The translations under genes and the position numbers were made by a program. This document shows positions 31,140 through 43,646 of a stretch of 64,000 nucleotides of DNA, one piece after another. The stretch is taken from positions 23,663-87,662 of the forward strand of contig CAYXJR010000001.1 of the NCBI GenBank assembly GCA_964465145.1, written 5' to 3'. Positions within the stretch are counted from its first letter, which is position 1. The number at the start of each line of letters is the position of its first letter. Source of the stretch: an uncultured Porphyromonadaceae bacterium. Lineage in GTDB: Bacteria; Bacteroidota; Bacteroidia; Bacteroidales; UBA12481. The notes beneath the pieces were generated by a model. It worked only from the letters and a program-made list of their open reading frames with translations. It was not told where the DNA came from and did no database searches.

Positions 31140-34100
31140 CTATCTCCACTTTCAGTTTCTCCCCAGCTTCTATTTTTAGTTCGCTAAAACCTAATCGTAT
31201 TTTACTACCATCAACAGAAGAAACTTTAACCGGACGGAGTTTTTCCTGATGAAATAATTTGATCTGATCTGATGAAAAACCATTCGGTATCCTAAGTACT
31301 ATTTCACTCAGATTAAGCTGACCATGATTTAGATCGATCTGGTATTTAAATCTATTTTGATCTTTCTTTTGCGAATAGCTCCCCCATCCTTCAGCGGTAA
31401 CGAAAGGAGCCCGGAAATCCTCAGGTGTAAGTCGCGGATCAAATTCAATCATCCCTTTCGGACCATGATAGTTAAATCCGCAAACAGCCTGGAAAACGCC
31501 ATAACTGGCCATGGCCCGTGCGTAATGATCTGAACATTCTATTTCATTATAGGGATTTCTTAGCTGTGCATTATAGCGATCATGAATTGCCCTGCTGACA
31601 GCCAATCCATTCTGAAGAATATCTGGATTATCAATCCCTTCATAAACCATATGGGAGGCGGCCTGCCATTCAAATCCGCTCATGCACTCATTGAAATACA
31701 TGAACTGCCACTGATCTTCCCATTTATCCCGTTTTCCTCCCTTTGGCCAGGTGCACATAAGTAATCCTCCATCCCCGGCCATAGCATACCATCTCCCTGC
31801 TTTGAAATGTCTTCTGAAAGGTCCTACATCAGGAACAAAGTTGTATCTCCATAATGATCTTAAGGCCGACAATTGCTTCTCACGGTCAAAAATTGAACCC
31901 AGGCCTACCCAGTGAGCCCAGGATTGGCCAAAAATTTGATCGATATAACAACCGGCACCTACACCGATCACATCTTTATGCTCAGGATCCTCCAGCTGGA
32001 TAAAAAACTCTCCATTGAATAGCTCATTCATGTTTCCGGCGCCCTTTTCTGCAATTGAGGAGCATTCTCCGGCAAATTTAAAATCCTCCATTTCAGTTGC
32101 CATTTTCTCCCCGGCCCGCAAAGCGGATATGTAAAGGGAAGAAATAAAGCTGATCTTGCCATACCAGGATGCATCCAGTGTATTAGGCTGCGACCCTTCC
32201 AATATGCCATCAAGATCTGCATCCTGATCGATCATATATAGCAGCGACTTTTTTATTGCCGTCCAGTTTCTTTTCAAAAAAGAATCATCGGCCGACATCA
32301 GGTGTTCCCTGTAAGCGCCAAGAATCCGTCCGCACTGTCCGTCGAATGCCGGGCCCATGGAGGTCTCAAGTAAAGCCCGATAGCCAATCTCTCCATTTTC
32401 TTTAAGAGCCATTCCAAAATCAACCCTTTCCCGTTGATCACGCTCAATTTCAGGGAATAAGCGGCCAACAGCCTGGGCATAATGCCACACATGGGTACAT
32501 GTTCCGGTACAGCAGCCAATACCCTCCCAGGCCCAAAATCTACCATTCTCATGACGGTAACAGGTGGTGGTAGCCAGGGTTGACGTATTGGCCATGGATC
32601 GATCCAGAAGCCAGTACGGTAAACTTGAATCATACCAGGTTTTCACCCATGTGCGAGTGGCACCAAGAAGACTATCCTGATTCGAGGCAATATATCCTGC
32701 AACTTCCAGGGCTGAATCAAAACGGGCTGCATAGGAATGACCCACTTTCACTCCTCCAAAATCACGGCCGTAAAAATTCGGGAAATGCCAGGTGAAGGCG
32801 AAATCAACGTTTTTGTCCTGGCCTGGTTCCAGATTGGTATTAATGGCTATTTGGCCAATAAGGATATCAGATAACAGATTACGGATGGCCTTTTTCTTCC
32901 CTGTTGATTTAATATCGGCAGATGCCTCAGTATTTTTACCTTCCAGGACAGATAGACAGAATGTTCCGAAATCCCGAAGCTCTGAAATGGGTTTGCTCTC
33001 GGGAGGATTATCGGAAAATACAAAATGATCCACACCGATATTACCCCAGCCCTCACTAAAATTATCCACTATCTCCAGCTGAGCATTCTGGCCTTCCCAT
33101 TGTCTAACTTTTATCCCTTCCAGCTTCATCGCATTGCTATTCTTCCCGGTAATTGTGGCCTTGATCTCTCCATCTATCAGGAGGTTGACACAGGTTTTTT
33201 CCTTATTAGCACCACCACCAACATAGAAATTGATATACTCCCGCTCAATTTTAAAAACCGGACTGGTCAGAGTACCTGTCTGCTGATCTTTCTCTCCTAC
33301 CTCACTGCCTGAGGCTGAAGCATGACTATTCACTACACGATTTCCTTCACCGCCTACATTTCCCTGGTAATCCGGTATATCGCTCTTTAAAATCGGCCCC
33401 TCCCCGAAGGATTTTCCAGTTGTTTTCCACTCACCATACGACTCAGATTCAAAATCCTCGAAAAGGATATCCTTCCTGGCCTTGCTTTTCTCAACCGGGG
33501 CAGGGAGGGCTTCGCACAGCAGGGAGGTCAGCATTTTATTTCCCACCACTCTGTTTTGCCGGCGGCCCGGCTGGTCTGCAGCAGAATCTATGCAGACAGG
33601 ATTTTGAGTATATCCCCGTATGCTGCATTCAACAATTTTATCAGATTTATTGATGACTTTGTAGCTCATCACCGTTGCAGGAAGGGATGATTCATCAGCA
33701 TTCAGGGGGATAAAGGGTGAAAAAGCTTCCAATTCCACCTCCACAGGGCAGTCAGGATCGGAGAATTTGATACGAGCCATCGGGTACCGGCCATCAAACT
33801 CAATATTTTTAAAGCCCTTTTGGTTAATCGGCCTGACTTTATCTCCGATTATCAATTCAAATCCCTGTTTAAAAGGTGATTGAATTTTTGCTGGTTCTAT
33901 AAAATTCGCCCCACTTCTGGTATTAACCAGACTGCCGCCAAGCTCAACTTCCCGGGGCTGAATCCCTTCCTGGTCACGGTTAAAGATATCCCAAAGCCAA
34001 AGCTGGCCATCTCCTGAAAGATAAACCGTGCCAGCAAATAGTCCGCCTACAGGCATCCCAATATGTTTCAGGGCTTCAGGATCAGAATAGGTTTCCTTTT

Positions 34101-34320
34101 TCCCTCTTTCGAACAGTGATTTCACCCATGCAGGATCCAGTTTTTTATCCGCAGGAATATATTTAAGATATTCGTTTTCATCGAAAGGCCCTGCAAAAAC
34201 AGGCATTCCCGGAACCATCATTAATGAGGCTCCTATAGCAGAGGTTTTCAGAAATTCCCGACGGTTGATATTGTTTTTGTCGCTATTACACGAGCAGCTT
34301 TTGTCTTTGCAGTTTTCCAT
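31126..34320 (-). CDS. GH116-family glycoside hydrolase with Tat signal and inserted lectin-like domain
   Basis: NRREFLK Tat motif, IGMPVGG..G, AFSPFIP, WAWEG..CC.GTCTHVWHYAQ, NTLD, YNEIECSDHYARAMAS. Confidence 0.85.
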   Translation of the reverse strand: MENCKDKSCSCNSDKNNINRREFLKTSAIGASLMMVPGMPVFAGPFDENEYLKYIPADKKLDPAWVKSLFERGKKETYSDPEALKHIGMPVGGLFAGTVYLSGDGQLWLWDIFNRDQEGIQPREVELGGSLVNTRSGANFIEPAKIQSPFKQGFELIIGDKVRPINQKGFKNIEFDGRYPMARIKFSDPDCPVEVELEAFSPFIPLNADESSLPATVMSYKVINKSDKIVECSIRGYTQNPVCIDSAADQPGRRQNRVVGNKMLTSLLCEALPAPVEKSKARKDILFEDFESESYGEWKTTGKSFGEGPILKSDIPDYQGNVGGEGNRVVNSHASASGSEVGEKDQQTGTLTSPVFKIEREYINFYVGGGANKEKTCVNLLIDGEIKATITGKNSNAMKLEGIKVRQWEGQNAQLEIVDNFSEGWGNIGVDHFVFSDNPPESKPISELRDFGTFCLSVLEGKNTEASADIKSTGKKKAIRNLLSDILIGQIAINTNLEPGQDKNVDFAFTWHFPNFYGRDFGGVKVGHSYAARFDSALEVAGYIASNQDSLLGATRTWVKTWYDSSLPYWLLDRSMANTSTLATTTCYRHENGRFWAWEGIGCCTGTCTHVWHYAQAVGRLFPEIERDQRERVDFGMALKENGEIGYRALLETSMGPAFDGQCGRILGAYREHLMSADDSFLKRNWTAIKKSLLYMIDQDADLDGILEGSQPNTLDASWYGKISFISSLYISALRAGEKMATEMEDFKFAGECSSIAEKGAGNMNELFNGEFFIQLEDPEHKDVIGVGAGCYIDQIFGQSWAHWVGLGSIFDREKQLSALRSLWRYNFVPDVGPFRRHFKAGRWYAMAGDGGLLMCTWPKGGKRDKWEDQWQFMYFNECMSGFEWQAASHMVYEGIDNPDILQNGLAVSRAIHDRYNAQLRNPYNEIECSDHYARAMASYGVFQAVCGFNYHGPKGMIEFDPRLTPEDFRAPFVTAEGWGSYSQKKDQNRFKYQIDLNHGQLNLSEIVLRIPNGFSSDQIKLFHQEKLRPVKVSSVDGSKIRLGFSELKIEAGEKLKVEIVSEL

Positions 34321-34400
34321 GGCGATCAGGGCTGGTTTGAGATATCTAAAATACTTATTTATTTACTTTAACGAGCCAATCCCCCTAGCCCCCTTTCCCT

Positions 34401-34438
34401 CTTCACGCAATCTTCACAAAAATATATCATTCCTTCAC
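34401..34438. promoter_or_regulatory. Possible response-regulator binding direct repeats
   Basis: CTTCAC at 34401, 34412 and 34433 (11- and 21-bp spacing), next to two-component remnants. Confidence 0.35.
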
Positions 34439-34489
34439 ATTAGAGTGCTTGCGTATTACGATATTTGGATCAGTCTAAACTACTGAGTC

Positions 34490-35022
34490 GTGATTATCGA
34501 ACCAAAAATAGAAATGGAAACGAGCCTGCTAAGGAGTATGCTCATCAACGGATCTTTACACACGCAGGTCGGTAATGAGCTGGCCATTGTACCAGACTAT
34601 CTTGATTTGGAGAGAATCAGGATGGACGGGAAATTTTCCTATTATATCTCAGTTCCTAAATCCTTGAGGACCTTGTGCCTGTATTCCAAAGGCGCATCGC
34701 CGACGATGCTTTTGAACTTCAGCTGGAGATTGAAAAGCCCATACCGCAGATGATGCTAGACAAGGATGCTATGCTTCAGGTGTTTTTTAATCTGTTGGAT
34801 AATGCGTATAAATATTCGGGGCGGTCCAAAAGAATTAATGTCAAGATTTACCTCCCACCAGTCACCAGTCACTTGTCACTATTGCAATTCGTGATTATGG
34901 TATTGGAATTAGTGAGAAAGACAGGACGAGAATTTTTGAGCGCTTTTTCAGGGGCGACAGGCTCAGGACGGCGGGGATCAATAATTACAGTGATTTTACC
35001 GGAAAAAACCAATATATCATGA
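34490..35022 (+). pseudogene. Mosaic of histidine kinase fragments (LytS-type segment plus HATPase segment)
   Basis: ELAIVPDYLDLERIRMDGKFSYYISV (LytS-like), then DKDAMLQVFFNLLDNAYKYS and a frameshifted DYGIGI..ERFF. Confidence 0.65.
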
Positions 35023-35330
35023 CCAGAATTCTGATAATCGAAGACGACAAGGCCATCAGGATGGGTCTTGAAGATGATCTTAAGGCAGATGGATATGAGG
35101 TGGAATTTGCTTTTGACGGGCTGGAAGGCCTGAAAAAAGCACAAGAAGCGGGCTACGGCCTGATCCTGCTCGACCTGATGCTGCCGGGAATGGATGGGCT
35201 GGATGTGTGTAAGGAAATCAGGAGAAAAAATATTCCTACTCCAATCATTATGTTAACCGCTAAAAGTCAGGATTTTGATAAAGTTATAGGATTAGACTAT
35301 CCGGAATTAGCGATGATTCTTCCATATTGA
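35019..35330 (+). pseudogene. Truncated OmpR-type response regulator (receiver only)
   Basis: RILIIEDD..LLDLMLPGMDG..MLTAK..DKVIGL, then abruptly joined to inverted ORF6N sequence at about 35297. Confidence 0.8.
35284..35325 (-). pseudogene. 5' stub of a second ORF6N-family gene
   Basis: TCAATAATCAAT-ATG MEESSLIPD matches TCGATAATCAAT-ATG MGKSSLIPE at 41038 and is preceded by the same upstream motif. Confidence 0.7.
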
Positions 35331-35344
35331 TTATTGATCTTTCT

Positions 35345-35378
35345 TATATAGACGCAGAAAAGGGCTGGAAATGGAAAA
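35345..35378 (-). promoter_or_regulatory. Shared bipartite motif copy 1 (putative alternative-sigma promoter)
   Basis: Plus strand TATATAGACGC-N13-AAATGGAAAA, 19 nt upstream of the ORF6N stub ATG. Confidence 0.65.
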
Positions 35379-35390
35379 CCGCGCATGTAA

Positions 35391-35416
35391 TAGACCTGTC
35401 AGGTTTTCAAAGACCT
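35391..35416. repeat. REP-like element (degenerate right arm)
   Basis: TAGACCTGTCAGGTTTTCAAAGACCT; same family as 36225 and 38442. Confidence 0.65.
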
Positions 35417-35437
35417 CCGGTTTTATACAAAAAAAGG

Positions 35438-35454
35438 TATCACAAATTGTGATA
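35438..35454. promoter_or_regulatory. ORF6N-type palindrome, intergenic copy
   Basis: TATCACAA-A-TTGTGATA, identical to 40819-40835 inside the ORF6N gene. Confidence 0.6.
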
Positions 35455-35486
35455 GCAAGGAATTTATTGAATCAGTGATTCAATTT

Positions 35487-35858
35487 CTACTTCAACTCAT
35501 ATGCTCCAACCAAAGACCGGGCTGGAATACCCAGTCGCTCCGATAAATTCCTTATCATTTCCAAGGTTAACCGTCTTTTGCGGCTAAGCACTTCAGAAGC
35601 ACGGTTTTTTCCACCAAAAGCATCGGCTAAATCCACTTGTTTGAGGCTCATCTCCTCCATCCTGATCTTTATCATTTCAATTGGATCCGGGGGGTCAATT
35701 GGATAATGGCGATTCTCATAATCCTCAACCAGCAGGGCTAATACTTCAGCCTCATCACCTTCTTCTGTTCCGACAGGAGCATCAAATAATTCATACAGGC
35801 GATCCAAGGCAATCTGGTACTCTGCTTCTGTTTTTAATATCTTAAATTTCTGTCCCAT
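35487..35858 (-). CDS. higA: HigA-family antitoxin (HTH)
   Basis: KTEAEYQIAL..E..VLALLVEDYE..YPI.PPDPIE.IK.RME..LKQ.DL..SEVL..KR.LTLEMIR.L. Confidence 0.9.
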   Translation of the reverse strand: MGQKFKILKTEAEYQIALDRLYELFDAPVGTEEGDEAEVLALLVEDYENRHYPIDPPDPIEMIKIRMEEMSLKQVDLADAFGGKNRASEVLSRKRRLTLEMIRNLSERLGIPARSLVGAYELK

Positions 35859-35863
35859 AAGAT

Positions 35864-36160
35864 TCAAATAGTATTAGCATCAATCTTGTCATACTCTTCA
35901 TGGGTACCAATAAACCGGATAAATACCCATTGCCTTTCATAATTAATCTTCACAACAAGCCGAAAAGAATTTCCTTTTATGTTAAATACCGCTCTTCCAT
36001 TTTTCAATAAGCTTACCCCAGCAAATGTCTGCCTAACATCATTTGGTTTTGTCCAACCTGAAGCCATTGTATATGAGTACCAGGTTTTCAAATATTGCTC
36101 TGCTTCAGGGCATTCTCTCCAAAATTTCAATAATGTCCCTTTAGTAAAAATCCCTTTCAC
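35864..36160 (-). CDS. higB: HigB-family toxin (RelE-like mRNase)
   Basis: TL.KFW..P.AE..L.TWY..W..P.DV, RAVFNIKGN.FRLVVKINY..VFIRFIGTHEEYDKIDA. Probable GTG start at 36160. Confidence 0.9.
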   Translation of the reverse strand: MKGIFTKGTLLKFWRECPEAEQYLKTWYSYTMASGWTKPNDVRQTFAGVSLLKNGRAVFNIKGNSFRLVVKINYERQWVFIRFIGTHEEYDKIDANTI

Positions 36161-36172
36161 GATTTGGCATTT

Positions 36173-36204
36173 CAAAATTAATAAATAATTCCCATTTTGG
36201 GAAT
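36173..36204 (-). promoter_or_regulatory. higBA promoter (-7 TAATTTTG) and palindromic operator
   Basis: TAnnTTTG at 36173-36180 (minus strand); ATTCCCA-TTT-TGGGAAT at 36188-36204. Confidence 0.6.
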
Positions 36205-36224
36205 ATTTCTGTTTTAATTACTAA

Positions 36225-36261
36225 TAGACCTGTCAGGTCTTTCAGAAACCTGACAGGTCTA
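36225..36261. repeat. REP-like hairpin overlapping the DUF1016 stop
   Basis: TAGACCTGTCAGG-TCTTTCAGAAA-CCTGACAGGTCTA; supplies the terminal codons LDLSGF*. Confidence 0.8.
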
Positions 36262-37267
36262 ACCCACCTAGCCCCCTCTCAATCTGCTCAACCGATGGTA
36301 GTGACTTTTCATAATACTCGGGCAATTCTGGGCCAGTGCTGTAGCTGGCGATACCAATGGGATTTTTTGTGTTTTTGAGGGAATATTCAACTGTCAACCG
36401 GCTTTTGTTTTTACAAATAATGATTCCAATGGCTTCTTTTTCATGTGGCTTACGATAGAAATCATTCAGAACATTTAGATAAAATTCCATTTTCCCTTTA
36501 TATTCAGGTTTGTAATTACCTGTTTTTAGTTCAATAGCAACCAAGCATTGCAGATCCCTGTGAAATAAAAGAAGATCAATATAGAATTCCTCACTTCCCA
36601 AAGTGATTCTAAATTGACTCCCCATATAACTATAATCCCCACCGAACTCCAACAAAAATTGCTGCATGTTCCGTATTAGACCTTCTTCAAGCTCTCTTTC
36701 ACTATGTTTCTCTGATAATTCAAGAAAATCAAAAGTGTAATGATCTTTTACTGCCAGAGTTTTCTGATGCTGAAACTTATCAGCAAGCAAATCATCATAA
36801 TTAGTTTGGTTTAACAAATACTTCTCATAAGTTTTATTGTCAATCTGATGTTCAAGAACCCTTGTTGTCCAACCAAATTTTTGTGTTGCAACAATATAGA
36901 ATTGTCTTTCTTGGGGTGTTTTGCATTTTGTGAAAATTCTGATATTGTGTGTCCAACCAATTTCTCCAATCAATGATTGGAGATTTATATGTTGCTCATA
37001 TTCAATATAAAACTGAACCATCAGCCAGATATTTGTTGTTGAAAAACCTCTTTGTTCAGGGAATTCTGTGGAGAGATCTTTGGTAATAGTTTCCACTACA
37101 GATTTTCCCCACCCCAACTCCTTCTGCTTCTCGGATATCATCTTCCCAATATCCCAATAAAGCCCTACTAATTCTTTATTTACAGCTTTCAGGGCAGCAT
37201 ACTGTGCATTGCGGATCCGTTCCTTGACTGATCCTATAAAGTCTTTGTATTCTTTTGGTGCATCCAT
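36242..37267 (-). CDS. yhcG: DUF1016/YhcG-family PD-(D/E)XK nuclease-domain protein (copy 1, intact)
   Basis: VNKELVGLYWDIG..WGKSVV..GFS..N, GWTH, KDHYTFDFL, YIDLLLFH..LVAIELK, GKMEFYL, IGIIICK. Confidence 0.92.
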   Translation of the reverse strand: MDAPKEYKDFIGSVKERIRNAQYAALKAVNKELVGLYWDIGKMISEKQKELGWGKSVVETITKDLSTEFPEQRGFSTTNIWLMVQFYIEYEQHINLQSLIGEIGWTHNIRIFTKCKTPQERQFYIVATQKFGWTTRVLEHQIDNKTYEKYLLNQTNYDDLLADKFQHQKTLAVKDHYTFDFLELSEKHSERELEEGLIRNMQQFLLEFGGDYSYMGSQFRITLGSEEFYIDLLLFHRDLQCLVAIELKTGNYKPEYKGKMEFYLNVLNDFYRKPHEKEAIGIIICKNKSRLTVEYSLKNTKNPIGIASYSTGPELPEYYEKSLPSVEQIERGLGGLDLSGF

Positions 37268-37283
37268 AAATAGTAGTTTTATT

Positions 37284-37317
37284 TATATAGATGCGAATGA
37301 GGGCCGGAAATGGAAAA
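37284..37317 (-). promoter_or_regulatory. Shared bipartite motif copy 2
   Basis: TATATAGATGC-N13-AAATGGAAAA, 16 nt upstream of ATG 37267. Confidence 0.7.
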
Positions 37318-37330
37318 TAGCGCAACTTAA

Positions 37331-37351
37331 CATATCACATTTTGTGATATG
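37331..37351. promoter_or_regulatory. ORF6N-type palindrome variant
   Basis: CATATCACA-TTT-TGTGATATG, overlapping the stop of DUF1016 copy 2 and just upstream of motif copy 2. Confidence 0.55.
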
Positions 37352-38377
37352 CACCCAATTCTCCAGCCAGTTCCTTTTCTATTTCTTCAATTGTCGGAAG
37401 ATTTGGTTTCAGCTTGTCGGGTATTACTGTACTCAGTTCATACTCAGCAATACCAATCGGTTGTGACATTCCCCTTAGAGCATACTCGGCAATTATCTTA
37501 GACTTAGATTTACAAATTAACAATCCGATGGTTGGATTATCATTTTCTGTTCTGATGGAATCATCAACAGCAGAAAGATAAAGGTTCATCTTGCCTGCAA
37601 ATTCCGCCTTGAATTCCTTGGTTTTGAGTTCTATGACTACATAGCATTTTAATCTGATGTGGTAGAAAAGCAAATCAAGATAAAAATCCTTATTGTCAAT
37701 CTTTAGAATTACTTGCCGACCTACAAATGAGAATCCAGAACCCAATTCCAGAAGAAATGAAGTAATGTGGTTAATCAGTTGCTTCTCCAGGTCCTTTTCA
37801 AGAGCCTTATCCTGAAGACTGAGAAAATCAAATATATACGGGTCTTTAAAAGATTCATTAGCCAATTCCGAATGAGGCATAGACATTGTATGCTCAAAAT
37901 TTGTAACCGCTTTACCCTGTCTTAAAAAAAGGCCAGACTCAAATTGATGGATCAGGATTGAGCGAGACCAATTGTTTTCAATGGTTCTTTGACAATAAAA
38001 AAAGCCTCTCTAGCTGATTTAGACTTAGTTACAATAATAACGTTATGGCCCCATGGAATTTGTCCAACAAGTTGTTGGATTTTTTCGGGTTCGATGCGAG
38101 AGGATGAGAAAAACTCGTACCATTTCTTCATAGAGAAGAGGTTTGATCGGGAAAATCCTTTTTGATCCGGGAATTCCACCTTGAGGTCATTGGAGAGTTT
38201 CTCAACTACAGCTGAACCCCAATTTGATTTCGATATTTTAATAGAAATCGATTCCCCAATATCCCAATACAAAAACAGCAGCTCCCTGTTAATATTAGTA
38301 AAAGCTCTAATATGCGCTGTCCTAATTCTCCGTTTTAGTTCAACCAACCATTCTTTGTATTCTTTTGGTGCATCCAT
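37335..38377 (-). pseudogene. yhcG: DUF1016/YhcG copy 2, -1 frameshift in a T7 run
   Basis: One extra T at 37997-38003 gives EAFFYCQRTIENNWSRSILIHQFESGL..NF..ELA..KDPYIFDFL, continuous with the 37335-37886 ORF. Confidence 0.85.
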
Positions 38378-38394
38378 AAATTGTAGGTTTTATT

Positions 38395-38428
38395 TATATA
38401 GATGCAGATCAGGAGCCAAAATGGAAAA
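38395..38428 (-). promoter_or_regulatory. Shared bipartite motif copy 3
   Basis: TATATAGATGC-N13-AAATGGAAAA, 17 nt upstream of ATG 38377. Confidence 0.7.
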
Positions 38429-38441
38429 TCGCGTAGGTGCC

Positions 38442-38475
38442 AGACCTGTCAGGTTTTCAAAGGCCTGACAGGTCT
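38442..38475. repeat. REP-like hairpin
   Basis: AGACCTGTCAGG-TTTTCAAAGG-CCTGACAGGTCT. Confidence 0.8.
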
Positions 38476-38594
38476 AGCCTTCCATTCAAGGTTGTCGCAA
38501 ATTGCTACCAGTCTAGGCGAGGCAAGTTAACTGGAAATAAAAGAAAGCTTAATCAAAGATATACGTGTGATGACAAATGAATTGCGGGTCGGCC

Positions 38595-38798
38595 AAAACA
38601 GAACAGCGGGCCGGCGGGGGCTTTTGAGCGAAGCGAAATCCCGAGAGCGCAGCGAATCGGGAGTGGGTGGAAGCTTTGTTCTGTTTTTGATTTTTGGGCC
38701 ACCTTTTTCATCAAGGAAAAAGGTGGAAAGAATAAAAGGATTGGACTAAAGTCCAGGCCATTAGGCTAGACTGTAGGGCCAGTAGATAAATCTAGTGG
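38595..38798. repeat. Multi-hairpin non-coding element / REP cluster
   Basis: AAAACAGAACA (38595) pairs with TGTTCTGTTTT (38677), with inner TCCCGA/TCGGGA. CCACCTTTTTC-ATCAAG-GAAAAAGGTGG at 38699-38726, TGGAC-TAAA-GTCCA, and CCAGTAGAT-AA-ATCTAGTGG. Confidence 0.55.
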
Positions 38799-38801
38799 TA
38801 A

Positions 38802-39316
38802 CTATAATATGCTCCTTAGCTCTCTTTCACTGTGCTTTTCAGATAAACCAAGAAAATCGAAGGTGTAATGATCCTTGATAGCCAGGGTATTCTGATGCTG
38901 AAACTTATCAGCAGGCAAATCATCATAATTGGTTTGGTTGAGCAAATACTTTTCGTAGGTTTTGTTTTCGATTTGGTGCTCCAATACTCTTGTTGTCCAA
39001 CCAAATTCTCTAGTGGCAGTTATATAAAATTTGCGCTGTGATTTGTTTTCACACTTTTTAAGAATCATAATATTATGACTCCATCCAATTTCTGGAATCA
39101 ATGATTCCAGAAATATAACTCCCTGATATTCATTATATAATCGAACCATTAGCCATAGATTATAAGCTGAAAATCCATGTTCTAATGGGAACTCATGTTT
39201 TAAATCCCTGGAAAGATTTTCAACAACAGATTTTCCCCATCCCAACTCCTTTTGCTTATCCGAAATCATTTTCCCAATATCCCAATAAAGTCTTTGTATT
39301 CTTTCGGTGCATCAAT
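38802..39316 (-). pseudogene. yhcG: DUF1016/YhcG copy 3: start codon lost, internal deletion, nuclease domain missing
   Basis: ATG>ATT at 39316 (IDAPKEYKD), a 79-bp deletion relative to copy 1, and homology ending after HSEREL. Confidence 0.85.
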
Positions 39317-39332
39317 AAATAGTAGTTTTAAT

Positions 39333-39366
39333 AATATAGATGCAGAAATGGCCTTGAAATGGAAAA
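39333..39366 (-). promoter_or_regulatory. Shared bipartite motif copy 4
   Basis: AATATAGATGC-N13-AAATGGAAAA, 16 nt upstream of the mutated start. Confidence 0.7.
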
Positions 39367-39381
39367 TGCTTTTTTGGAAAA

Positions 39382-39412
39382 GCCAGGGGTCGGACCGAAG
39401 CCGACCCCTGGC
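39382..39412. repeat. GC-rich hairpin (REP-like or terminator)
   Basis: GCCAGGGGTCGG-ACCGAAG-CCGACCCCTGGC. Confidence 0.65.
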
Positions 39413-39416
39413 AAGT

Positions 39417-40460
39417 TTAATCCCTATTCCCTAATTCCCCAATAATATCCATCATCACCAGTACATTCTCCAGCGGGGTTTCGGGGAGGATATAGTCATG
39501 GGAGGCGCCGGCGATGAATCCCCCGCCGGGCTTCATGATCCGGATGGTTTCAATCGTTTTCTGTCTGACTTGTTCAGGCGTGCCTTCGATAAGGACCTTT
39601 TGTGAGTCAATGCAGCCATTGAAAACAATCTCTTTGCCGTATTTCTTTTTGAGGGTAGCCAGGTCCATCCCCCTGCAAGAAGGCTGGATGGCATGAAGGC
39701 CGTCGATACCGCATTCTATCAGGGCGGGGATCAGCTCTGCAAAACCCCCGCAGCAGTGAAGCATTATCTTCGATTCATATGAATGGGCCAGGCATGCCAG
39801 CTTTTTGAATTTCGGGAATAAGTATTCCCTGAAAAGATCTTCCCCTATCAGCGCACCCTGGTTTGAACCGAGGTCATTCCCGAAAAACAATATATCGATA
39901 AGGTCGCCCGCTTCAGCGAAAATCCTCTCATTGGCAGCAAAATAGAAATCGAAAACCTTATCCATCAGAGTATGCACCCATTTTGGATCGGTGTACATCC
40001 GAGTCAAAAGATTCTCCATCCCTGCCAGGTCGATCGCATCATGCCAGAAAGGCGACCAGTCGCCACCCAGTATCGCGTACTCATTGGCATAGGGGGTAAT
40101 TCCTTTTCGTAGATTACTGACATCAACCTTAGCAGGGTCGGGCCAGGGATAGGCTGTGATCCCGTCCAAACCTGCTTCGGACAGAGGATGGTTAAGCGCC
40201 ATGCCAACTCCCACTCCAGCCCGTAAAATACCAAATGGAGATACTGATGAATCACCGAAAGTCGCAGTACCGATATGATCAATAAAAGGTGCCTTAATCC
40301 AGCGAAAATCATCACCCAGGCGCTGCCTGAAGCCCTCATCATCCAATCCCAGCTGCTTTTTACCTGCTTCCCAGAACTCAGGCGAAGTACCGCACCAGCG
40401 TGGCACCCGGTCAGGTTCGATAAAATCAAAGGAAATTAATACCCGTTCTTTGGAGGTCAT
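39417..40460 (-). CDS. Uroporphyrinogen-decarboxylase-family protein
   Basis: MTSKERV..EPDRVP, YPWPDP, GNDLGSN, MLHCCG, FNGCIDSQ, GGGFIAGASH..ETPLEN. Confidence 0.85.
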   Translation of the reverse strand: MTSKERVLISFDFIEPDRVPRWCGTSPEFWEAGKKQLGLDDEGFRQRLGDDFRWIKAPFIDHIGTATFGDSSVSPFGILRAGVGVGMALNHPLSEAGLDGITAYPWPDPAKVDVSNLRKGITPYANEYAILGGDWSPFWHDAIDLAGMENLLTRMYTDPKWVHTLMDKVFDFYFAANERIFAEAGDLIDILFFGNDLGSNQGALIGEDLFREYLFPKFKKLACLAHSYESKIMLHCCGGFAELIPALIECGIDGLHAIQPSCRGMDLATLKKKYGKEIVFNGCIDSQKVLIEGTPEQVRQKTIETIRIMKPGGGFIAGASHDYILPETPLENVLVMMDIIGELGNRD

Positions 40461-40516
40461 GATAACTGGTAAAATAGAATCACCCAAATTTATTCAGATT
40501 TCAGCCCTTTTCAAAT

Positions 40517-41038
40517 CTATTTTTCCTTGTTGATTTTATATCCTATCATTCTTCTTGGCTCATTTTTCTTTCCCAGTAGTCGCTTGATAGTTTCAAAAAC
40601 AAACCTGAACTTTCCATCATAATTTCTTTCCAATTCCTCAATTTTCCTTCTCAGCTGAGCATTGGATTCCATCATTTTCCTGAGCTTGACAAATGTCCTC
40701 ATAATCGCAATATTTACTTCAATTGCTTTAGGAGATCTGAGTACAGATGATAACATAGCAACTCCTTGTTCAGTGAACGCAAATGGAGGAGAAGGTGAAA
40801 ATTTAAGATCCTTTAGCTTATCACAAATTGTGATAAGCTCTTGCCACTCCTTTTTGCCTAACCGAATTAAAAAGTCATCGGGAAACCTTTCGATATTCCT
40901 GCGGACTTGCTGTTTTAATACTCTGGTTTCAAGACCATAAAGCTGCGCAAGATGAAAATCCAAAATAACTTTCCGGCCCCGGATTAGGAGTATGGCCCTG
41001 TCAATTTGTTCTTCTGGGATTAATGATGATTTTCCCAT
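40517..41038 (-). CDS. ORF6N-domain DNA-binding protein
   Basis: ILLIRGRKVILDFHLAQLYG.ETRVLKQQVRRNIERFP.DF, PFAFTEQGVAMLSSVLRS..AIEVNIAIMRTFV, RRMIGY. Confidence 0.92.
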   Translation of the reverse strand: MGKSSLIPEEQIDRAILLIRGRKVILDFHLAQLYGLETRVLKQQVRRNIERFPDDFLIRLGKKEWQELITICDKLKDLKFSPSPPFAFTEQGVAMLSSVLRSPKAIEVNIAIMRTFVKLRKMMESNAQLRRKIEELERNYDGKFRFVFETIKRLLGKKNEPRRMIGYKINKEK

Positions 41039-41057
41039 ATTGATTATCGATATTTAT

Positions 41058-41091
41058 AATATAAATGCGGATCATCGGATAAAATGGAAAT
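41058..41091 (-). promoter_or_regulatory. Shared bipartite motif copy 5
   Basis: AATATAAATGC-N13-AAATGGAAAT, 19 nt upstream of ATG 41038. Confidence 0.65.
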
Positions 41092-41139
41092 ATTTCGAAA
41101 ATTTATTCGGAAATTTAACCGATACAAACTCAACCAGCC

Positions 41140-43646
41140 ATGAAACTTAAACTTTTCAACATCTCTATTATCTCTGTCATGATAATTATCTCACTGGGAC
41201 TATCCAGCTGCCAGGATCAGCAGGCGGCTGCAGGCGAAAGAAACCTGGCCCTGCTTGCCGTGGCAGACGGATCCATGAATTTTGGCGGCTATTTGGCCGG
41301 CCTGAATGACCGCCTCACTCCAACCGATTCCCTACCATGGAGCTCATCAGCGGACAATTTAATACAACCAGTTTTGATGAGGTTTCAACAAACCAGCTGC
41401 GTGTAGTCGTTGACTCGGCCAGGATGTTTGCGGCCTCTGTTATGGAATGGAAAGTGATACAGGCACCGGGATCAGCCAATGTACCGCCGGTAGTCACGGC
41501 GGGTATTGACAGGGATGTGATGGTGGGTGGTAATACTTACCTGTTAGGATCAGTAAAGAGCATGACAACACCTGTCAGTCCAAATTGGATCAAAAAATCA
41601 GGCCCGGGAAAAGTGATGTTCGAAAATGCCAACTCCCTGGAAGCAAAAGCCAGCTTCTCTGAACCGGGGGAATATGTCCTGGCATTAACTGCAAAAGAGG
41701 GCCGGTTAAAATCGTCCTCCACACTGAAAGTATGGGTTCACGATCCGCCACCCGCCAAACGGCTGGATGTAGTATATACAAAACACTACTCGATAGATAA
41801 CCCTCTCTGGAACGACAGGGCAAAAGCGATAATTACCGAATGGATCCCCTGGTGTATCAGCCAGATTGAACGCACCGATCTTACCGAGGGCCAGGGCGGG
41901 CTTGATAATTTTATCGAAGCAGCCAAGGCACTGCACGGTGAACCGCATGGACGGCAGCAGGGTTATGTTTTCTCCAATGCATGGGTGCACCAGACCATCG
42001 AATCGATGTGTATTGCACTGATGGTTGATCCACAAGGCGACCAGGAGATAATAGCTGCCCAGGAGAAAATGAAGGAAACCATTGAAAAGTGGATCCCGAT
42101 AATCCTGGCAGCCCAGGAGCCCGATGGATACCTCCAGACAGCCTACACCCTGCGCGACACCACCCGTTGGAAAGACAGATGGGAAGAGCGTAACCGTGGG
42201 TCACATGAGGGCTATGTAGCCGGCTATTTTATCGAATCTGCAATAAACCACTATACCCTTACCGAAGGTTCGGATACTCGTTTGTATGATGCGGCCAAGA
42301 AGCTTGCCGACTGCTGGGTTGACAATATCGGACCGGGAAAGAAGGCATGGTACGACGGCCACCAGGAGATGGAGCAGGCCCTGGTAAGGTTCGGCCGTTT
42401 TGTGAACGATATGGAAGGCAAGGGCCGGGGCGATAGTTATGTTGCTCTGGCAAAGTTCCTGCTGGATAACCGCGGCGGGGGTAGCAAATACGACCAGAGC
42501 CACCTGCCGGTACAAGAGCAGTACGAGGCTGTGGGACATGCAGTAAGGGCGGTTTACAACTATTCAGCTATGGCCGACGTGGCTGCAGAAACAGGGGATA
42601 CCGATTATCAGAGCGCAGTAATGTCGCTATGGAATAACATGGTGAACAAAAAATATTACCTTACCGGAGGTGTGGGCAGCGGAGAAACATCTGAGGGATT
42701 CGGGCCCAATTATTCACTTCGAAATAATGCTTATGCCGAGTCCTGTTCAAGCTGTGGATTGATATTCTTCCAGTACAAAATGAACCTGGCCTACCACGAT
42801 GCCAAATATGCCGATCTTTATGAGGAGACTATGTACAATGCGCTCCTGGGCTCACTGGACCTTGAGGGGGAACACTTTTACTATACCAATCCACTCAATT
42901 CAAGCCGCCCGCGGGATGCCTGGCATGTCTGCCCCTGCTGTGTGGGTAATATCCCCAGGACCTTGCTTATGATCCCCACCTGGACCTACGTAAAGGGGGA
43001 TGAGGGGGTATATGTCAACCTTTTCATAGGAAGTACCATTCAGGTGGAAGGAATTGCCGGAACAAAGGTTGAGATGGTTCAGCAGACAGATTATCCATGG
43101 AAAGGGGATGTTTCGATTACTGTAAATCCAGAAGAGGAGAAAGCTTTTACAATATTTGTGCGTGTTCCCAACCGCCATACCAGCTTGCTGTACACCGCAG
43201 TTCCTGAAGTCAGCGGGCTCAAATCCCTGTCGGTTAATGGTGATGAGGTTGAAATAAACATCGAGAAGGGCTACGTGTCTATTCACCGGACCTGGAAGAA
43301 AGGCGACCAGATCAAGCTGGAAATACCGATGGAAATTCAGCGAATAACGGCCAGTAATCTTATTGAAGCCGACAGGGGAAAGGTTGCACTCCGTTATGGC
43401 CCGCTGATCTACAATGTGGAACTGGTCGACCAGGCAGATATAAGTCAGGGCATTAGTCCTGAACAACTTAGCCTGAAATGGCGGCCAGACCTTTTACACG
43501 GGGTGATGGTAATAAAGGGTAAATGGGCCGATGGATCAGATCTTACTGCCATCCCTTACTGGACAAGAAATAACAGGCTGGATCAGGCTGATCCTGAGGT
43601 GAGGAACGGATCGGTGGTGTGGATTGGTGGATCAGGAGATCGGTAG
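41140..43646 (+). pseudogene. GH127 beta-L-arabinofuranosidase-family lipoprotein; signal/N-terminus out of frame (break near 41335)
   Basis: Lipobox LSSC in the 41140 frame; catalytic region in the 41337 frame with HEGYVAG, GHQEME, AVGHAVRA, ESCSSCG, CPCC, PYW..NR. Confidence 0.75.

What the first reader, a model, noticed from the sequence alone, without database searches (positions are those of the whole stretch)
35284..41091. Cassette-like array of palindrome-bearing nuclease/DNA-binding genes under one shared upstream motif (candidate undescribed system)
Seen: co-oriented units ORF6N, [URO-D], DUF1016-3, DUF1016-2, DUF1016-1, higBA and an ORF6N stub. Five units are built as hairpin/palindrome (in four of the five), then a fixed bipartite motif, then a 16-19 nt leader and the gene. 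All three DUF1016 genes and the intact ORF6N gene have an internal perfect dyad. There is no integrase or transposase. Known: DUF1016 is a PD-(D/E)XK protein of unclear role, ORF6N is a phage-antirepressor-related DNA-binding domain, and HigBA is a type II TA system. Inference: a modular, repeatedly acquired stress/defence regulon or selfish mini-cassette family, in which palindromes inside the coding sequence act as self-recognition or mobility sites. I know of no characterisation of this arrangement but could not search the literature.
Basis: partly seen in the sequence, partly recalled or inferred. Interest (0 to 1): 0.85.

Follow-up and report, generated by a model that had tools for sequence, protein, structure and literature searches.

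The report
Competence-type promoter drives palindrome-bearing defence genes
The shared motif is the promoter of a genome-wide DNA-uptake and recombination regulon in a freshwater Bacteroidota family, and the palindromes inside the DUF1016 and ORF6N genes are a conserved, unexplained feature of those gene families across bacteria and archaea.

Summary
In detail: five co-oriented units on the minus strand carry TTTTTCCATTT-N13/14-tGCATCTATAt about 17-20 nt before the start codon. The motif is not private to the array. About 45-50 sites occur genome-wide. They precede recA, ssb, dprA, comM, radC, comEC, topA and, less directly, comF and comEA. They also precede some 25 small accessory genes: DUF1016, ORF6N, toxin-antitoxin pairs, RAYT transposases, 23S-IVS four-helix proteins and GIY-YIG.

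The exact motif is in 24/24 genomes of the same family and 0/16 sister families. A divergent ECF-type sigma factor has nearly the same distribution. It sits directly after ftsZ and is followed by a motif-driven zinc anti-sigma-like gene.

The array is a variable, partly decayed islet of regulon members. It holds one intact DUF1016, two DUF1016 pseudogenes, one ORF6N plus a stub, and higBA and URO-D without the motif. The upstream hairpins look like terminators or local repeats.

The internal dyads are real. They lie at a fixed codon position in DUF1016/YhcG genes, and 73 of 80 diverse bacterial and archaeal loci keep at least 8 of 9 stem pairs. E. coli K-12 yhcG has one too. ORF6N genes show the same feature. 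Arms change by compensatory substitution; the function is unknown. No integron-like mobility was found.

The parts
41059..41090 (-). Regulon promoter motif upstream of ORF6N; weakest copy, PWM 24.4 bits
40517..41038 (-). Intact ORF6N gene (173 aa); matches PADLOC PDC-S05
   Evidence: Pfam PF10543, E 8.2e-27; PDC-S05, E 1.2e-53
40815..40839 (.). Internal perfect palindrome of ORF6N (arms 12 nt, centre 1 nt), at the family's conserved dyad site
39417..40487 (-). URO-D family gene. It has no motif and starts 30 nt after the ORF6N stop. It is adjacent to ORF6N in congener G001 as well.
39382..39412 (-). GC-rich hairpin followed by a T run, directly after the URO-D stop; likely the URO-D terminator
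   Evidence: read from the sequence
39334..39366 (-). Regulon promoter motif upstream of DUF1016-3 (36.6 bits)
38802..39269 (-). DUF1016-3 pseudogene. The start codon reads ATT, an N-terminal stretch is missing, and the nuclease domain is cut after 26 of 157 profile positions.
39088..39114 (.). Internal perfect palindrome of DUF1016-3 (arms 13 nt)
38480..38800 (.). Filler that replaces the 3' part of DUF1016-3. It holds a short dispersed repeat (about 38662-38745) that gives about 8 partial matches in the genome.
38439..38478 (.). Hairpin (15-nt arms, 93% complementary). Copies of it lie at 36225-36261 and, degenerate, at 35391-35416; an array-local repeat.
38396..38428 (-). Regulon promoter motif upstream of DUF1016-2 (36.5 bits)
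37335..38377 (-). DUF1016-2 pseudogene, split by a frameshift into an N-terminal part (37952-38377) and a nuclease part (37335-37886)
   Evidence: One contig from another sample spans the break (36900-38695) with 0 differences.
38063..38079 (.). Internal perfect palindrome of DUF1016-2 (arms 8 nt)
37333..37352 (.). Palindrome of the ORF6N type, overlapping the DUF1016-2 stop and lying 16 nt upstream of the next motif
37285..37317 (-). Regulon promoter motif upstream of DUF1016-1 (36.6 bits)
36242..37267 (-). Intact DUF1016/YhcG gene (341 aa; DUF1016_N plus YhcG_C PD-(D/E)XK); matches PADLOC PDC-S02
36963..36983 (.). Internal perfect palindrome of DUF1016-1 (arms 10 nt), encoding LQSLIGE
35487..36175 (-). 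higB-higA toxin-antitoxin pair. It has no regulon motif. It has its own palindrome at 36188-36204.
35438..35454 (.). 17-nt palindrome identical to the core of the ORF6N internal dyad, followed by a T run on the minus strand; likely the higBA terminator
   Evidence: sequence read
35346..35378 (-). Regulon promoter motif of the ORF6N stub (32.3 bits)
35300..35330 (-). ORF6N stub (about 10 codons), joined to the truncated response-regulator gene at 35019-35330 (+)
   Evidence: repeat D5: 78 nt, 73% identical to 41013-41090; contigs bridge the junction

Best explanation
The bipartite motif is the promoter class of one regulon in this freshwater Bacteroidota family. It is most likely read by a divergent ECF-type sigma factor of 249 aa that is encoded directly after ftsZ. 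That sigma is probably held in check by a zinc-binding (H-x3-C-x2-C) membrane anti-sigma whose own gene carries the motif.

The core of the regulon is the DNA-uptake and recombination set: comEA, comEC, comF, dprA, comM, radC, ssb, recA and topA. It therefore works like the competence regulons of other phyla. The same promoter also drives roughly 25 small accessory genes:
- the defence candidates DUF1016 and ORF6N;
- hicAB and higBA toxin-antitoxin modules;
- RAYT transposases;
- 23S-IVS four-helix proteins;
- GIY-YIG nucleases.

The array in the window is a variable, decaying islet of such accessory members. It was built partly by tandem duplication of DUF1016 together with its promoter. It is not a cassette system with its own mobility. 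The hairpins in front of the motifs are the terminators of the preceding genes, or local repeats.

The palindromes inside DUF1016 and ORF6N belong to those gene families everywhere, not to this regulon. They are Watson-Crick dyads kept by compensatory change. I favour a DNA-level hairpin or cruciform element. It could be a structure-specific site for the encoded nuclease, which was predicted to resemble Holliday-junction resolvases, for example for autoregulation. Replication template switching would keep the arms perfect.

What is shown and what is inferred:
- Shown: the motif, its gene set, its phyletic range, the gene decay, and the conservation and covariation of the dyads.
- Inferred: promoter function, the sigma assignment, the competence phenotype and what the dyads do.
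For: Motif and its gene set in G000:
- PWM sites against a reversed-genome control: 54 to 1 at 20 bits or more, and 43 to 0 at 24 bits or more.
- 35 of 49 sites at 22 bits or more have an ATG ORF within 200 nt, and 23 have one within 30 nt.
- Pfam on 30 downstream proteins outside the window gave RecA, SSB, DprA, ComM-type Mg_chelatase, RadC, ComEC and TopA.
- The same scan also gave DUF2851, LTD, 23S_rRNA_IVP, GIY-YIG, Y1_Tnp, HicA, an integrase, DUF1016 and ORF6N; 24 of the 30 proteins had a family.

Relatives:
- The exact motif is in 24/24 family genomes and 0/16 other families, with 0 backward-control hits.
- In relatives it precedes ComF and ComEA-like genes.
- 21 of 30 downstream proteins in relatives have a homologue among the G000 set.
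- Upstream of dprA, 23/24 family loci score 14 bits or more. The scores are 0/24 inside the gene and 0/6 in other families.

Sigma and anti-sigma:
- The sigma scores 51.6 bits on TIGR02937 (cut-off 42.9) and 28 bits on Sigma70_r2 (cut-off 24).
- It is present in 23/24 family genomes and 1/16 other families.
- An H-x3-C-x2-C ORF lies directly downstream in 12/12 loci.
- A motif-like box precedes that ORF in 8/12 loci.
- Complex prediction for the sigma with the anti-sigma N-terminus scored 0.89 against a best control of 0.00. That mark was reached by 58 of 80 solved complexes and 2 of 110 mismatched pairs. Runs agreed in at least 89% of contacts, and the partner pLDDT was at least 75.

Array decay.

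Dyads:
- Among 22 distinct homologue ORFs from relatives, 19 have the dyad at the same place.
- Among 80 diverse loci, 45 have 9/9 stem pairs and 28 have 8/9.
- 84.6% of cells are paired against 63.1% in shuffles. 173 cells show changes on both sides against 62 in shuffles, and 0 of 500 shuffles reach that figure.
- Mismatches are G-T 15 and A-C 17, so there is no wobble bias on the sense strand.
- ORF6N: 13 of 30 loci have arms of at least 9 nt, and 6 more have arms of 7-8 nt at the same site.
- E. coli K-12 yhcG has arms of 15 nt.
Against: - There are no RNA or transcription-start data. No listed sequencing run is RNA.
- The PWM was trained on the same genome it counts, so its counts are inflated.
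- All 24 motif-bearing genomes form one clade, so the co-occurrence of sigma and motif amounts to a single evolutionary event.
- Pfam detected no region 4 in the sigma.
- The motif precedes the anti-sigma gene, not the sigma gene. The first box also lacks the AAC that I recall as typical of ECF -35 elements.
- Sigma/zinc-anti-sigma complexes have been solved (recalled), so the complex prediction pass may reflect likeness to them.
- Competence has never been shown for this lineage.
- Toxin-antitoxin modules and defence genes under a DNA-uptake promoter are unusual.
- G000 comEA has only a weak site (19.7 bits). comF lies about 280 nt behind its site, with a gene fragment in between.
- Template switching alone could keep perfect inverted repeats without any function (PMC5941160, passages read).
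Confidence: 0.6

Rival explanations
1. The motif is the binding site of a transcription activator that works with the housekeeping sigma, as with Sxy/CRP-S or ComK boxes. It would not be the -35/-10 of an alternative sigma. The ECF-like protein after ftsZ would then be unrelated or only one member of the regulon.
For: The regulon content resembles activator-controlled competence regulons. PMC1635313 was seen only as a search listing and abstract start. The motif precedes the anti-sigma gene rather than the sigma gene. No region 4 was detected in the sigma.
Against: The motif is asymmetric. Its two blocks sit at a fixed spacing of 13-14 nt and a fixed short distance from start codons. That geometry is what -35/-10 elements show. 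The sigma and the motif also share nearly the same phyletic range.
Confidence: 0.15
2. It is a DNA-damage (SOS-like) or general stress regulon rather than a DNA-uptake regulon.
For: recA, ssb, topA and radC are typical damage-response genes. Nucleases and toxin-antitoxin modules fit a stress response.
Against: dprA, comEC, comF, comEA and comM are DNA-uptake and processing genes. The motif is not a palindromic repressor operator. I did not see uvr, lexA-like or translesion polymerase genes among the 35 downstream ORFs, though I did not search for them specifically.
Confidence: 0.12
3. The array is a mobile cassette system of the integron or shufflon kind. The motif or the hairpins would be recombination sites, and the internal dyads would be mobility sites.
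For: The units are co-oriented and built alike. The region varies between congeners. DUF1016 copy number ranges from 0 to 20 matches per genome, with many fragments.
Against: Pfam found no recombinase among the ORFs scanned in the interval. The motif sits at conserved positions before core genes in 23/24 genomes. The similarity between units extends into the DUF1016 coding sequence, as ordinary tandem duplication would give. The hairpins are of three unrelated sequences.
Confidence: 0.04
4. The internal dyads have no function. A quasi-palindrome arose once in each family. It then persists because replication template switching turns mismatched arms back into perfect ones, while protein selection only filters which arm sequences are tolerated.
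For: Template switching is reported to conserve perfect inverted repeats in Proteobacteria (PMC5941160, passages read). It is also reported to homogenise arms within coding sequences in yeast (PMC8604942, abstract start only). G-T and A-C mismatches are equally frequent (15 and 17). The pseudogenes DUF1016-2 and DUF1016-3 still have perfect arms.
Against: The dyad is kept at one codon position across bacteria and archaea down to about 26-30% protein identity. Two unrelated defence-candidate families both have one. Of 30 regulon genes, dyads with arms of at least 8 nt turned up in only four: one DUF1016, one ORF6N, one LTD gene and RecA. Coding palindromes are described as rare (PMC6649704, abstract start only).
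Confidence: 0.35

Closest known systems
Competence regulons under a dedicated sigma factor (ComX/sigma-X of streptococci, sigma-H-like factors of other Firmicutes)
   Same: One short promoter box is shared by dprA, comEC, comF, comEA, radC, ssb and recA. Accessory genes are drawn into the same regulon.
   Different: The phylum is different. The box is bipartite with another sequence. The candidate sigma is ECF-like (TIGR02937), not ComX/sigma-H, and is paired with a zinc anti-sigma. No transformation phenotype is known. Many defence-candidate, toxin-antitoxin and transposase genes are members.
ECF sigma / ZAS anti-sigma pairs (for example SigR-RsrA and RpoE-ChrR; names recalled)
   Same: A small sigma with region 2 sits next to an adjacent gene that carries H-x3-C-x2-C plus an upstream His. 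The predicted complex scores 0.89 against a control of 0.00. A cognate-type promoter lies within the pair.
   Different: The sigma is 249 aa, with a long divergent C-terminal half and no region 4 detected by Pfam. The promoter lies before the anti-sigma gene only, and the sigma gene follows ftsZ after a gap of a few bases. The -35 block lacks the usual AAC (recalled).
PADLOC phage-defence candidates PDC-S02 (DUF1016/YhcG) and PDC-S05 (ORF6N), proposed by 'guilt by embedding' in Type I RM, BREX and DISARM systems (bioRxiv 10.1101/2024.01.29.577857, passages read)
   Same: The HMM matches are strong (E 7.5e-136 and 1.2e-53). Among 114 neighbours of diverse DUF1016 loci, 14 carry N6_Mtase, 10 HsdM_N and 8 Methylase_S.
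   Different: Here the genes are not embedded in an RM system. They stand in a tandem array under a DNA-uptake-type promoter. Two of the three DUF1016 copies are pseudogenes. I saw no experimental test of these two candidates in the passages read.
Conserved perfect inverted repeats maintained by template switching (PMC5941160) and coding palindromes (PMC6649704)
   Same: The arms are perfect, evolve in concert and keep their position over long evolutionary times.
   Different: Those studies cover non-coding repeats in Proteobacteria and mitochondrial genes of Nematomorpha. Here a single dyad sits at one codon position of a prokaryote-wide nuclease family and of a DNA-binding family. My searches found no mention of this.

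Membership tests
Alternative-sigma competence regulon | A common promoter box upstream of the late DNA-uptake and processing genes | tested here: met
   In G000 the box precedes dprA, comM, radC, comEC, ssb and recA. In relatives it precedes comF and comEA. dprA upstream scores 14 bits or more in 23/24 family loci.
Alternative-sigma competence regulon | A sigma factor shown to read the box | tested here: inconclusive
   Only phyletic co-occurrence and adjacency of a box to the sigma/anti-sigma pair are available.
Alternative-sigma competence regulon | The sigma belongs to the ComX/sigma-H family | tested here: not met
   The best NCBIfam match is the general ECF superfamily TIGR02937. All equivalog models score far below their cut-offs.
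Alternative-sigma competence regulon | Natural transformation of the organism | not testable with these tools
   The genome comes from an uncultured lake-water population.
ECF sigma / ZAS anti-sigma pair | Sigma regions 2 and 4 | tested here: inconclusive
   Region 2 scores 28 bits (cut-off 24) and TIGR02937 scores 51.6 bits (cut-off 42.9). Pfam found no region 4.
ECF sigma / ZAS anti-sigma pair | An adjacent gene with the H-x3-C-x2-C zinc motif | tested here: met
   Found in 12/12 loci. H16, H43, C47 and C50 are invariant.
ECF sigma / ZAS anti-sigma pair | An autoregulatory promoter upstream of the sigma gene | tested here: not met
   The box lies between the sigma and anti-sigma genes. The sigma gene starts a few bases after the ftsZ stop.
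Integron-like gene cassette array | A site-specific recombinase and recombination sites at the unit boundaries | tested here: not met
   No recombinase domain was found among the ORFs scanned in 35284-41091. The motif also precedes core genes at conserved positions.
DUF1016/YhcG (PF17761 + PF06250; PADLOC PDC-S02) | An N-terminal helical domain plus a C-terminal PD-(D/E)XK domain | tested here: met
   DUF1016-1 has both domains (E 1e-43 and 8.9e-56). DUF1016-2 is split and DUF1016-3 is truncated. PDC-S02 matches at 7.5e-136.
PD-Lambda-2 defence system | Both proteins at full length | tested here: not met
   HigB matches PD-Lambda-2_A. HigA (126 aa) covers only positions 3-121 of the 402-position B profile.
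HigBA type II toxin-antitoxin | A HigB toxin domain next to an HTH antitoxin | tested here: met
   HigB_toxin scores E 1.9e-30. HTH_3 scores 21 bits, just under its 23-bit cut-off. The two genes overlap by 4 nt.
LexA-type SOS regulon | A palindromic repressor operator | tested here: not met
   The motif is an asymmetric two-block element.

The most novel reading that the evidence does not exclude
A Bacteroidota lineage has a natural-competence regulon switched by its own sigma/anti-sigma pair, which has not been described. Dozens of defence-candidate and selfish genes have adopted that promoter, so that they are expressed exactly when foreign DNA enters the cell. Independently of this, DUF1016/YhcG and ORF6N genes throughout prokaryotes carry a functional DNA hairpin or cruciform inside their coding sequence. 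That element would be recognised by structure rather than by sequence, for example by the resolvase-like nuclease itself, for autoregulation or to tell self DNA from foreign DNA.
Probability: 0.25. Interest if true: 0.9.

Novelty: new variant of a known kind. Interest (0 to 1): 0.78.

Why it matters
How competence is regulated in Bacteroidota appears not to be described. My full-text searches returned only gene-level studies of Riemerella and general reviews. A defined promoter box with a candidate sigma/anti-sigma pair would make the question directly testable. It also points to new candidates for the unknown outer-membrane DNA-uptake step: lamin-tail-domain proteins with a T9SS sorting tail, DUF2851 and a conserved secreted 257-aa protein.

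The regulon ties widespread 'filler' genes of Bacteroidota genomes to DNA uptake. These are DUF1016, ORF6N, four-helix 23S-IVS proteins, GIY-YIG nucleases and RAYT transposases. That suggests when and why they are expressed.

The conserved coding palindrome is a separate result. It is present even in E. coli K-12 yhcG. It gives a handle on the uncharacterised DUF1016/YhcG candidate defence nucleases. It is also a clean case for separating selection on DNA structure from template-switch homogenisation.

Tried and rejected
- Rfam scan of 33000-43000 at E up to 1: only three sub-threshold chance hits and no known RNA family, including Pedo-repair.
- The look-up of sequencing runs: no RNA holder was listed, so expression and transcription starts could not be examined.
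- Read laying with four other lake-metagenome runs. Contigs matched the array without differences and bridged the response-regulator/stub junction and the DUF1016-2 frameshift. One 'joint' (36986 to 39265, side 23) is best explained by paralogue similarity, and I do not count it as a deletion variant.
- A crude count of the recalled Bacteroidota housekeeping consensus (TTTG-N17-21-TANNTTTG) gave 190 hits against 143 in the reversed genome. This was uninformative.
- Shared 7-mers between dprA and DUF1016 upstream regions in three genomes of other families gave nothing convincing. Whether sister families have a diverged version of the regulon stays open.
- ORF6N next to DUF1016 is not general: 2 of 80 loci.
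- The terminator scan flagged two internal dyads as terminator-like on the antisense strand. The third dyad and most homologues lack a T tail, so I dropped this reading.
- An RNA-hairpin reading of the dyads is disfavoured by the equal G-T and A-C mismatch counts, but it is not excluded.
- The AlphaFold model of DUF1016-1 (mean pLDDT 65, pTM 0.42) places the dyad-encoded residues in a short helix of the helical N-domain. It was not used further and no fold search was run.
- No match to solved structures by sequence.
- Complex prediction was used once, for the sigma/anti-sigma pair only.
- Supplementary files of papers were closed. The PADLOC PDC tables (bioRxiv 10.1101/2024.01.29.577857, Tables S3-8) may hold details on PDC-S02 and PDC-S05 that I could not see.

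Full report
**What is in the interval.** All genes between 35284 and 41091 lie on the minus strand. Pfam gives the following:
- ORF6N, 40517-41038.
- A URO-D family gene, 39417-40487.
- A truncated DUF1016, 38802-39269.
- A DUF1016 split by a frameshift into an N-terminal part (37952-38377) and a nuclease part (37335-37886).
- An intact DUF1016/YhcG gene, 36242-37267.
- higB, 35864-36175, and higA, 35487-35867.

A 78-nt stretch at 35300-35377 is 73% identical to the start of ORF6N together with its upstream region (repeat D5). It abuts a response-regulator gene that is cut inside its receiver domain (35019-35330). Contigs from four other lake-water metagenome runs match these junctions without differences, so the decay is not an artefact of this assembly alone. 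Those runs may, however, belong to one campaign.

**The motif.** On the minus strand the five units share TTTTTCCATTT, 13-14 variable bases, then tGCATCTATAt.
- A first pattern found four copies, against 0.10 expected.
- The ORF6N copy appeared with a regex.
- The three DUF1016 copies are part of an 86-nt repeat that runs into the first codons, so they reflect tandem duplication (repeat D2).
- The ORF6N and stub copies are a second pair.
- higBA and URO-D have no copy.

**The motif is genome-wide.** The window's genome has 184 contigs, 4.62 Mb and 41% G+C.
- A loose regex gave 40 hits against 7 in the reversed genome.
- A weight matrix with 24 informative positions gave 54 sites against 1 at 20 bits or more, and 43 against 0 at 24 bits or more. 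The matrix was trained on this genome, which inflates these counts.
- Of 49 sites at 22 bits or more, 35 have an ATG ORF of at least 45 aa within 200 nt, and 23 have one within 30 nt.
- Several of the other sites precede hicAB, higBA or a MazE-like gene with other start codons, or lie at contig ends.

**Genes behind the sites.** Pfam scans of 30 downstream proteins outside the window found a family for 24:
- DNA uptake and recombination: RecA, SSB, DprA, a ComM-type Mg-chelatase ATPase, RadC, ComEC and topoisomerase I.
- Unknown or surface proteins: DUF2851, and three or four lamin-tail-domain proteins, one with a T9SS sorting tail.
- Accessory genes: three 23S-rRNA-IVS four-helix proteins (a fourth by NCBIfam), a GIY-YIG nuclease, two IS200-like (RAYT) transposases, HicA, a tyrosine integrase, another DUF1016, another ORF6N, and fragments of DUF559 and PDDEXK_3.
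- comEA has a weak site (19.7 bits). comF lies behind a site and a gene fragment.

This is the gene set of a competence regulon, with many small accessory genes added.

**Conservation in relatives.**
- The exact pattern TTTCCATTT-N14/15-CATCTATA is present in all 24 other genomes of the same family, at 1-12 copies each. It is absent from one genome each of 16 other families of the order. The backward control gave 0 hits in all 41 genomes.
- In 30 loci from relatives the downstream genes include ComEC, RadC, TopA, DUF2851, LTD proteins, HicA, RAYT, four-helix proteins, DUF1016 and ORF6N. They also include ComF and a ComEA-like HHH protein.
- 21 of 30 downstream proteins have a BLASTP homologue among the G000 set.
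- One relative has ORF6N followed by DUF1016, each with its own motif (L052).
- Upstream of orthologous dprA, 23 of 24 family loci score 14 bits or more and 21 score 20 or more. The figures are 0 of 24 inside the gene and 0 of 6 in other families.

The motif is therefore a conserved regulatory element of core genes, not a cassette boundary.

**A candidate sigma factor.** Among 18 Sigma70_r2 matches in the genome, the weakest belongs to a 249-aa ORF that starts a few bases after ftsZ. It passes the general ECF-superfamily model (51.6 bits, cut-off 42.9) and Sigma70_r2 (28 bits, cut-off 24). No region 4 was found.
- The protein is present in 23 of 24 family genomes. The one miss is 80% complete. 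It is present in 1 of 16 other families, at 28% identity.
- In 12 of 12 loci the next gene encodes a protein with invariant H16, H43, C47 and C50, the zinc anti-sigma signature. It is 251-301 aa long, but only 73 aa in G000, which lies near a contig end.
- In 8 of 12 loci a motif-like box lies 6-29 nt after the sigma stop and 7 nt before this gene.
- Complex prediction scored 0.89 against a best control of 0.00. That mark was reached by 58 of 80 solved complexes and 2 of 110 mismatched pairs. Runs agreed in at least 89% of contacts, and the partner pLDDT was at least 75. Similar complexes have been solved, so this shows likeness rather than proof.
- Atlas clusters of this protein are labelled 'hypothetical' and are mostly Bacteroidota.

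Assigning this sigma to the motif is an inference from co-occurrence and position.

**The array as an islet.**
- DUF1016 occurs at 0-20 matches per genome among 41 relatives, with many fragments and tandem clusters.
- In congener G001 the conserved flanking gene (84% identical) is followed by another gene. Then come an ORF6N that lacks its first ~39 codons and the URO-D gene directly beside it, with no DUF1016 or higBA between them.
- In G002 the whole array is absent from the orthologous place.
- PADLOC models match DUF1016 as PDC-S02 (E 7.5e-136) and ORF6N as PDC-S05 (E 1.2e-53). They match HigB and the first third of the B profile as PD-Lambda-2.
- PDCs are candidates proposed because they are embedded in RM, BREX or DISARM loci (bioRxiv 10.1101/2024.01.29.577857, passages read).
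- DUF1016 is reported as enriched beside inversion-targeted RM genes (PMC9881135, passages read).
- Among 114 of the 134 immediate neighbours of diverse DUF1016 loci, 14 carry N6_Mtase, 10 HsdM_N and 8 Methylase_S.

**The upstream hairpins.**
- 39382-39412 is a GC-rich stem followed by a T run, directly after the URO-D stop.
- 35438-35454 is followed by a T run after higA.
- 37333-37352 overlaps the DUF1016-2 stop.
- 36225-36261, 38439-38478 and the degenerate 35391-35416 are copies of one local repeat that is rare elsewhere in the genome.

I read them as terminators or local repeats that happen to precede the next promoter.

**The internal dyads.** This part of the observation turned out stronger than expected.
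- In homologues from relatives, 19 of 22 distinct full-length ORFs have a perfect palindrome with arms of 9-14 nt at the same place, about nt 285-305. Other dyads in these genes are sporadic.
- In 80 loci drawn from GTDB species across many bacterial phyla and several archaea, the nine stem pairs around a 1- or 3-nt centre are all Watson-Crick in 45 loci. They are 8 of 9 in 28, 7 of 9 in 5 and 6 of 9 in 2.
- Arm sequences differ widely and the encoded peptide co-varies, for example LQSLIGE, VQPLVAQ and LAPMARE.
- On the alignment, 84.6% of cells pair, against 63.1 +/- 1.0% in shuffles and 31-40% with slid partners. 173 cells carry changes on both sides against 62 +/- 5, and 0 of 500 shuffles reach that figure. 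The windows were placed by best pairing within 20 nt of the homologous codon, which favours the structure somewhat.
- Non-Watson-Crick pairs are G-T 15, A-C 17 and other 12. There is no sense-strand wobble bias, which argues for a DNA-level or strand-symmetric constraint.
- E. coli K-12 yhcG has a dyad with 15-nt arms at nt 377-410.
- ORF6N genes carry a dyad at the conserved LRSQIxTS motif. Six of 9 local homologues have it. In 30 loci from 150 genomes of the phylum, 13 have arms of 9-17 nt and 6 more have arms of 7-8 nt at that site.
- Among 30 regulon genes outside the window, dyads with arms of at least 8 nt occur only in DUF1016, ORF6N, one LTD gene and RecA (arm 8). The genome has 99 perfect dyads with arms of at least 10 nt, against 19 after shuffling, and about a fifth of them are REP-like elements.

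The dyads belong to these two gene families, not to the regulon.

**What the dyads might do.** The YhcG nuclease domain was predicted to resemble archaeal Holliday-junction resolvases (PMC1189080, passages read). A palindrome can extrude a four-way structure. This makes structure-specific self-binding a reasonable hypothesis, but nothing here tests it. Template switching can conserve perfect repeats without function (PMC5941160, passages read), and this is the main rival. My searches found no report of these dyads.

**Verdict.** The array is an ordinary, decaying cluster of accessory genes, but two of its features lead to larger findings. The first is a family-wide competence-type regulon with a candidate sigma/anti-sigma switch that also drives defence-candidate and selfish genes. 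The second is a prokaryote-wide coding palindrome in DUF1016/YhcG and ORF6N genes. Promoter function, the sigma assignment, the competence phenotype and the function of the dyads are all inferred.

Noticed in passing
window 34490-35330: A two-component system in decay. The histidine-kinase region has multiple stops in frame. The response regulator is cut at position 89 of the 111-position receiver profile and abuts the ORF6N stub.
   Followed up: partly
window 38662-38745: A short dispersed repeat gives about 8 partial matches in the genome. One match lies next to the other DUF1016 gene on contig C99 and another lies near the motif site on C39. Metagenome contigs show many loose ends here.
   Followed up: partly
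window 35438-35454, 37333-37349, 40819-40835: The palindrome TCACA-3 A/T letters-TGTGA occurs five times in the whole genome, three of them in this array. The copy after higA is letter-for-letter the 17-nt core of the ORF6N internal dyad. It may be an operator or a reused terminator.
   Followed up: partly
G000 contigs C15, C23, C54, C68, C77, C103, C123, C124 and others: A REP-like palindrome family (GTAGAGAC...GTCTCTAC) makes up about a fifth of the genome's 99 long perfect dyads. The RAYT transposase genes that usually go with such elements are themselves behind the regulon motif.
   Followed up: no
L264 (E. coli K-12 NC_000913.3), yhcG nt 377-410: The model-organism gene yhcG carries a perfect 15-nt-arm dyad at the family's conserved site, so the phenomenon can be tested in E. 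coli K-12.
   Followed up: partly
G000 loci L004, L005, L010, L014, L026: Regulon members of unknown role: DUF2851, a conserved 257-aa protein with a signal-peptide-like start, DUF4493-LTD, and LTD proteins, one with a T9SS tail. They are candidates for the unknown outer-membrane DNA-uptake step of Bacteroidota.
   Followed up: no
G000 C14:27783-28664: comF lies behind a PDDEXK_3 (GxxExxY-type) gene fragment. The fragment sits between the regulon promoter and comF, as if an accessory gene had inserted into the leader.
   Followed up: no
relatives G026, G028, G029, G032, G033, G039 (table): In more distant DUF1016 homologues the match is split at about residues 90-103. The two pieces lie in one longer open frame, which implies an insertion of roughly 35-45 aa at the dyad site. 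N-terminal-only fragments ending there are also common.
   Followed up: no
loci L151-L230: DUF1016 proteins are 50-59% identical between this Bacteroidota genome and Thermodesulfobacteriota, Geobacter, Planctomycetota, Cyanobacteria and methanogenic archaea. This points to frequent horizontal transfer.
   Followed up: no
window 36188-36204: A perfect 7+7 palindrome (ATTCCCA...TGGGAAT) lies just upstream of higB. It is likely the operator of the higBA module. Similar operator-like palindromes sit between the regulon motif and the hicA or higB genes on contigs C10, C79 and C125.
   Followed up: no
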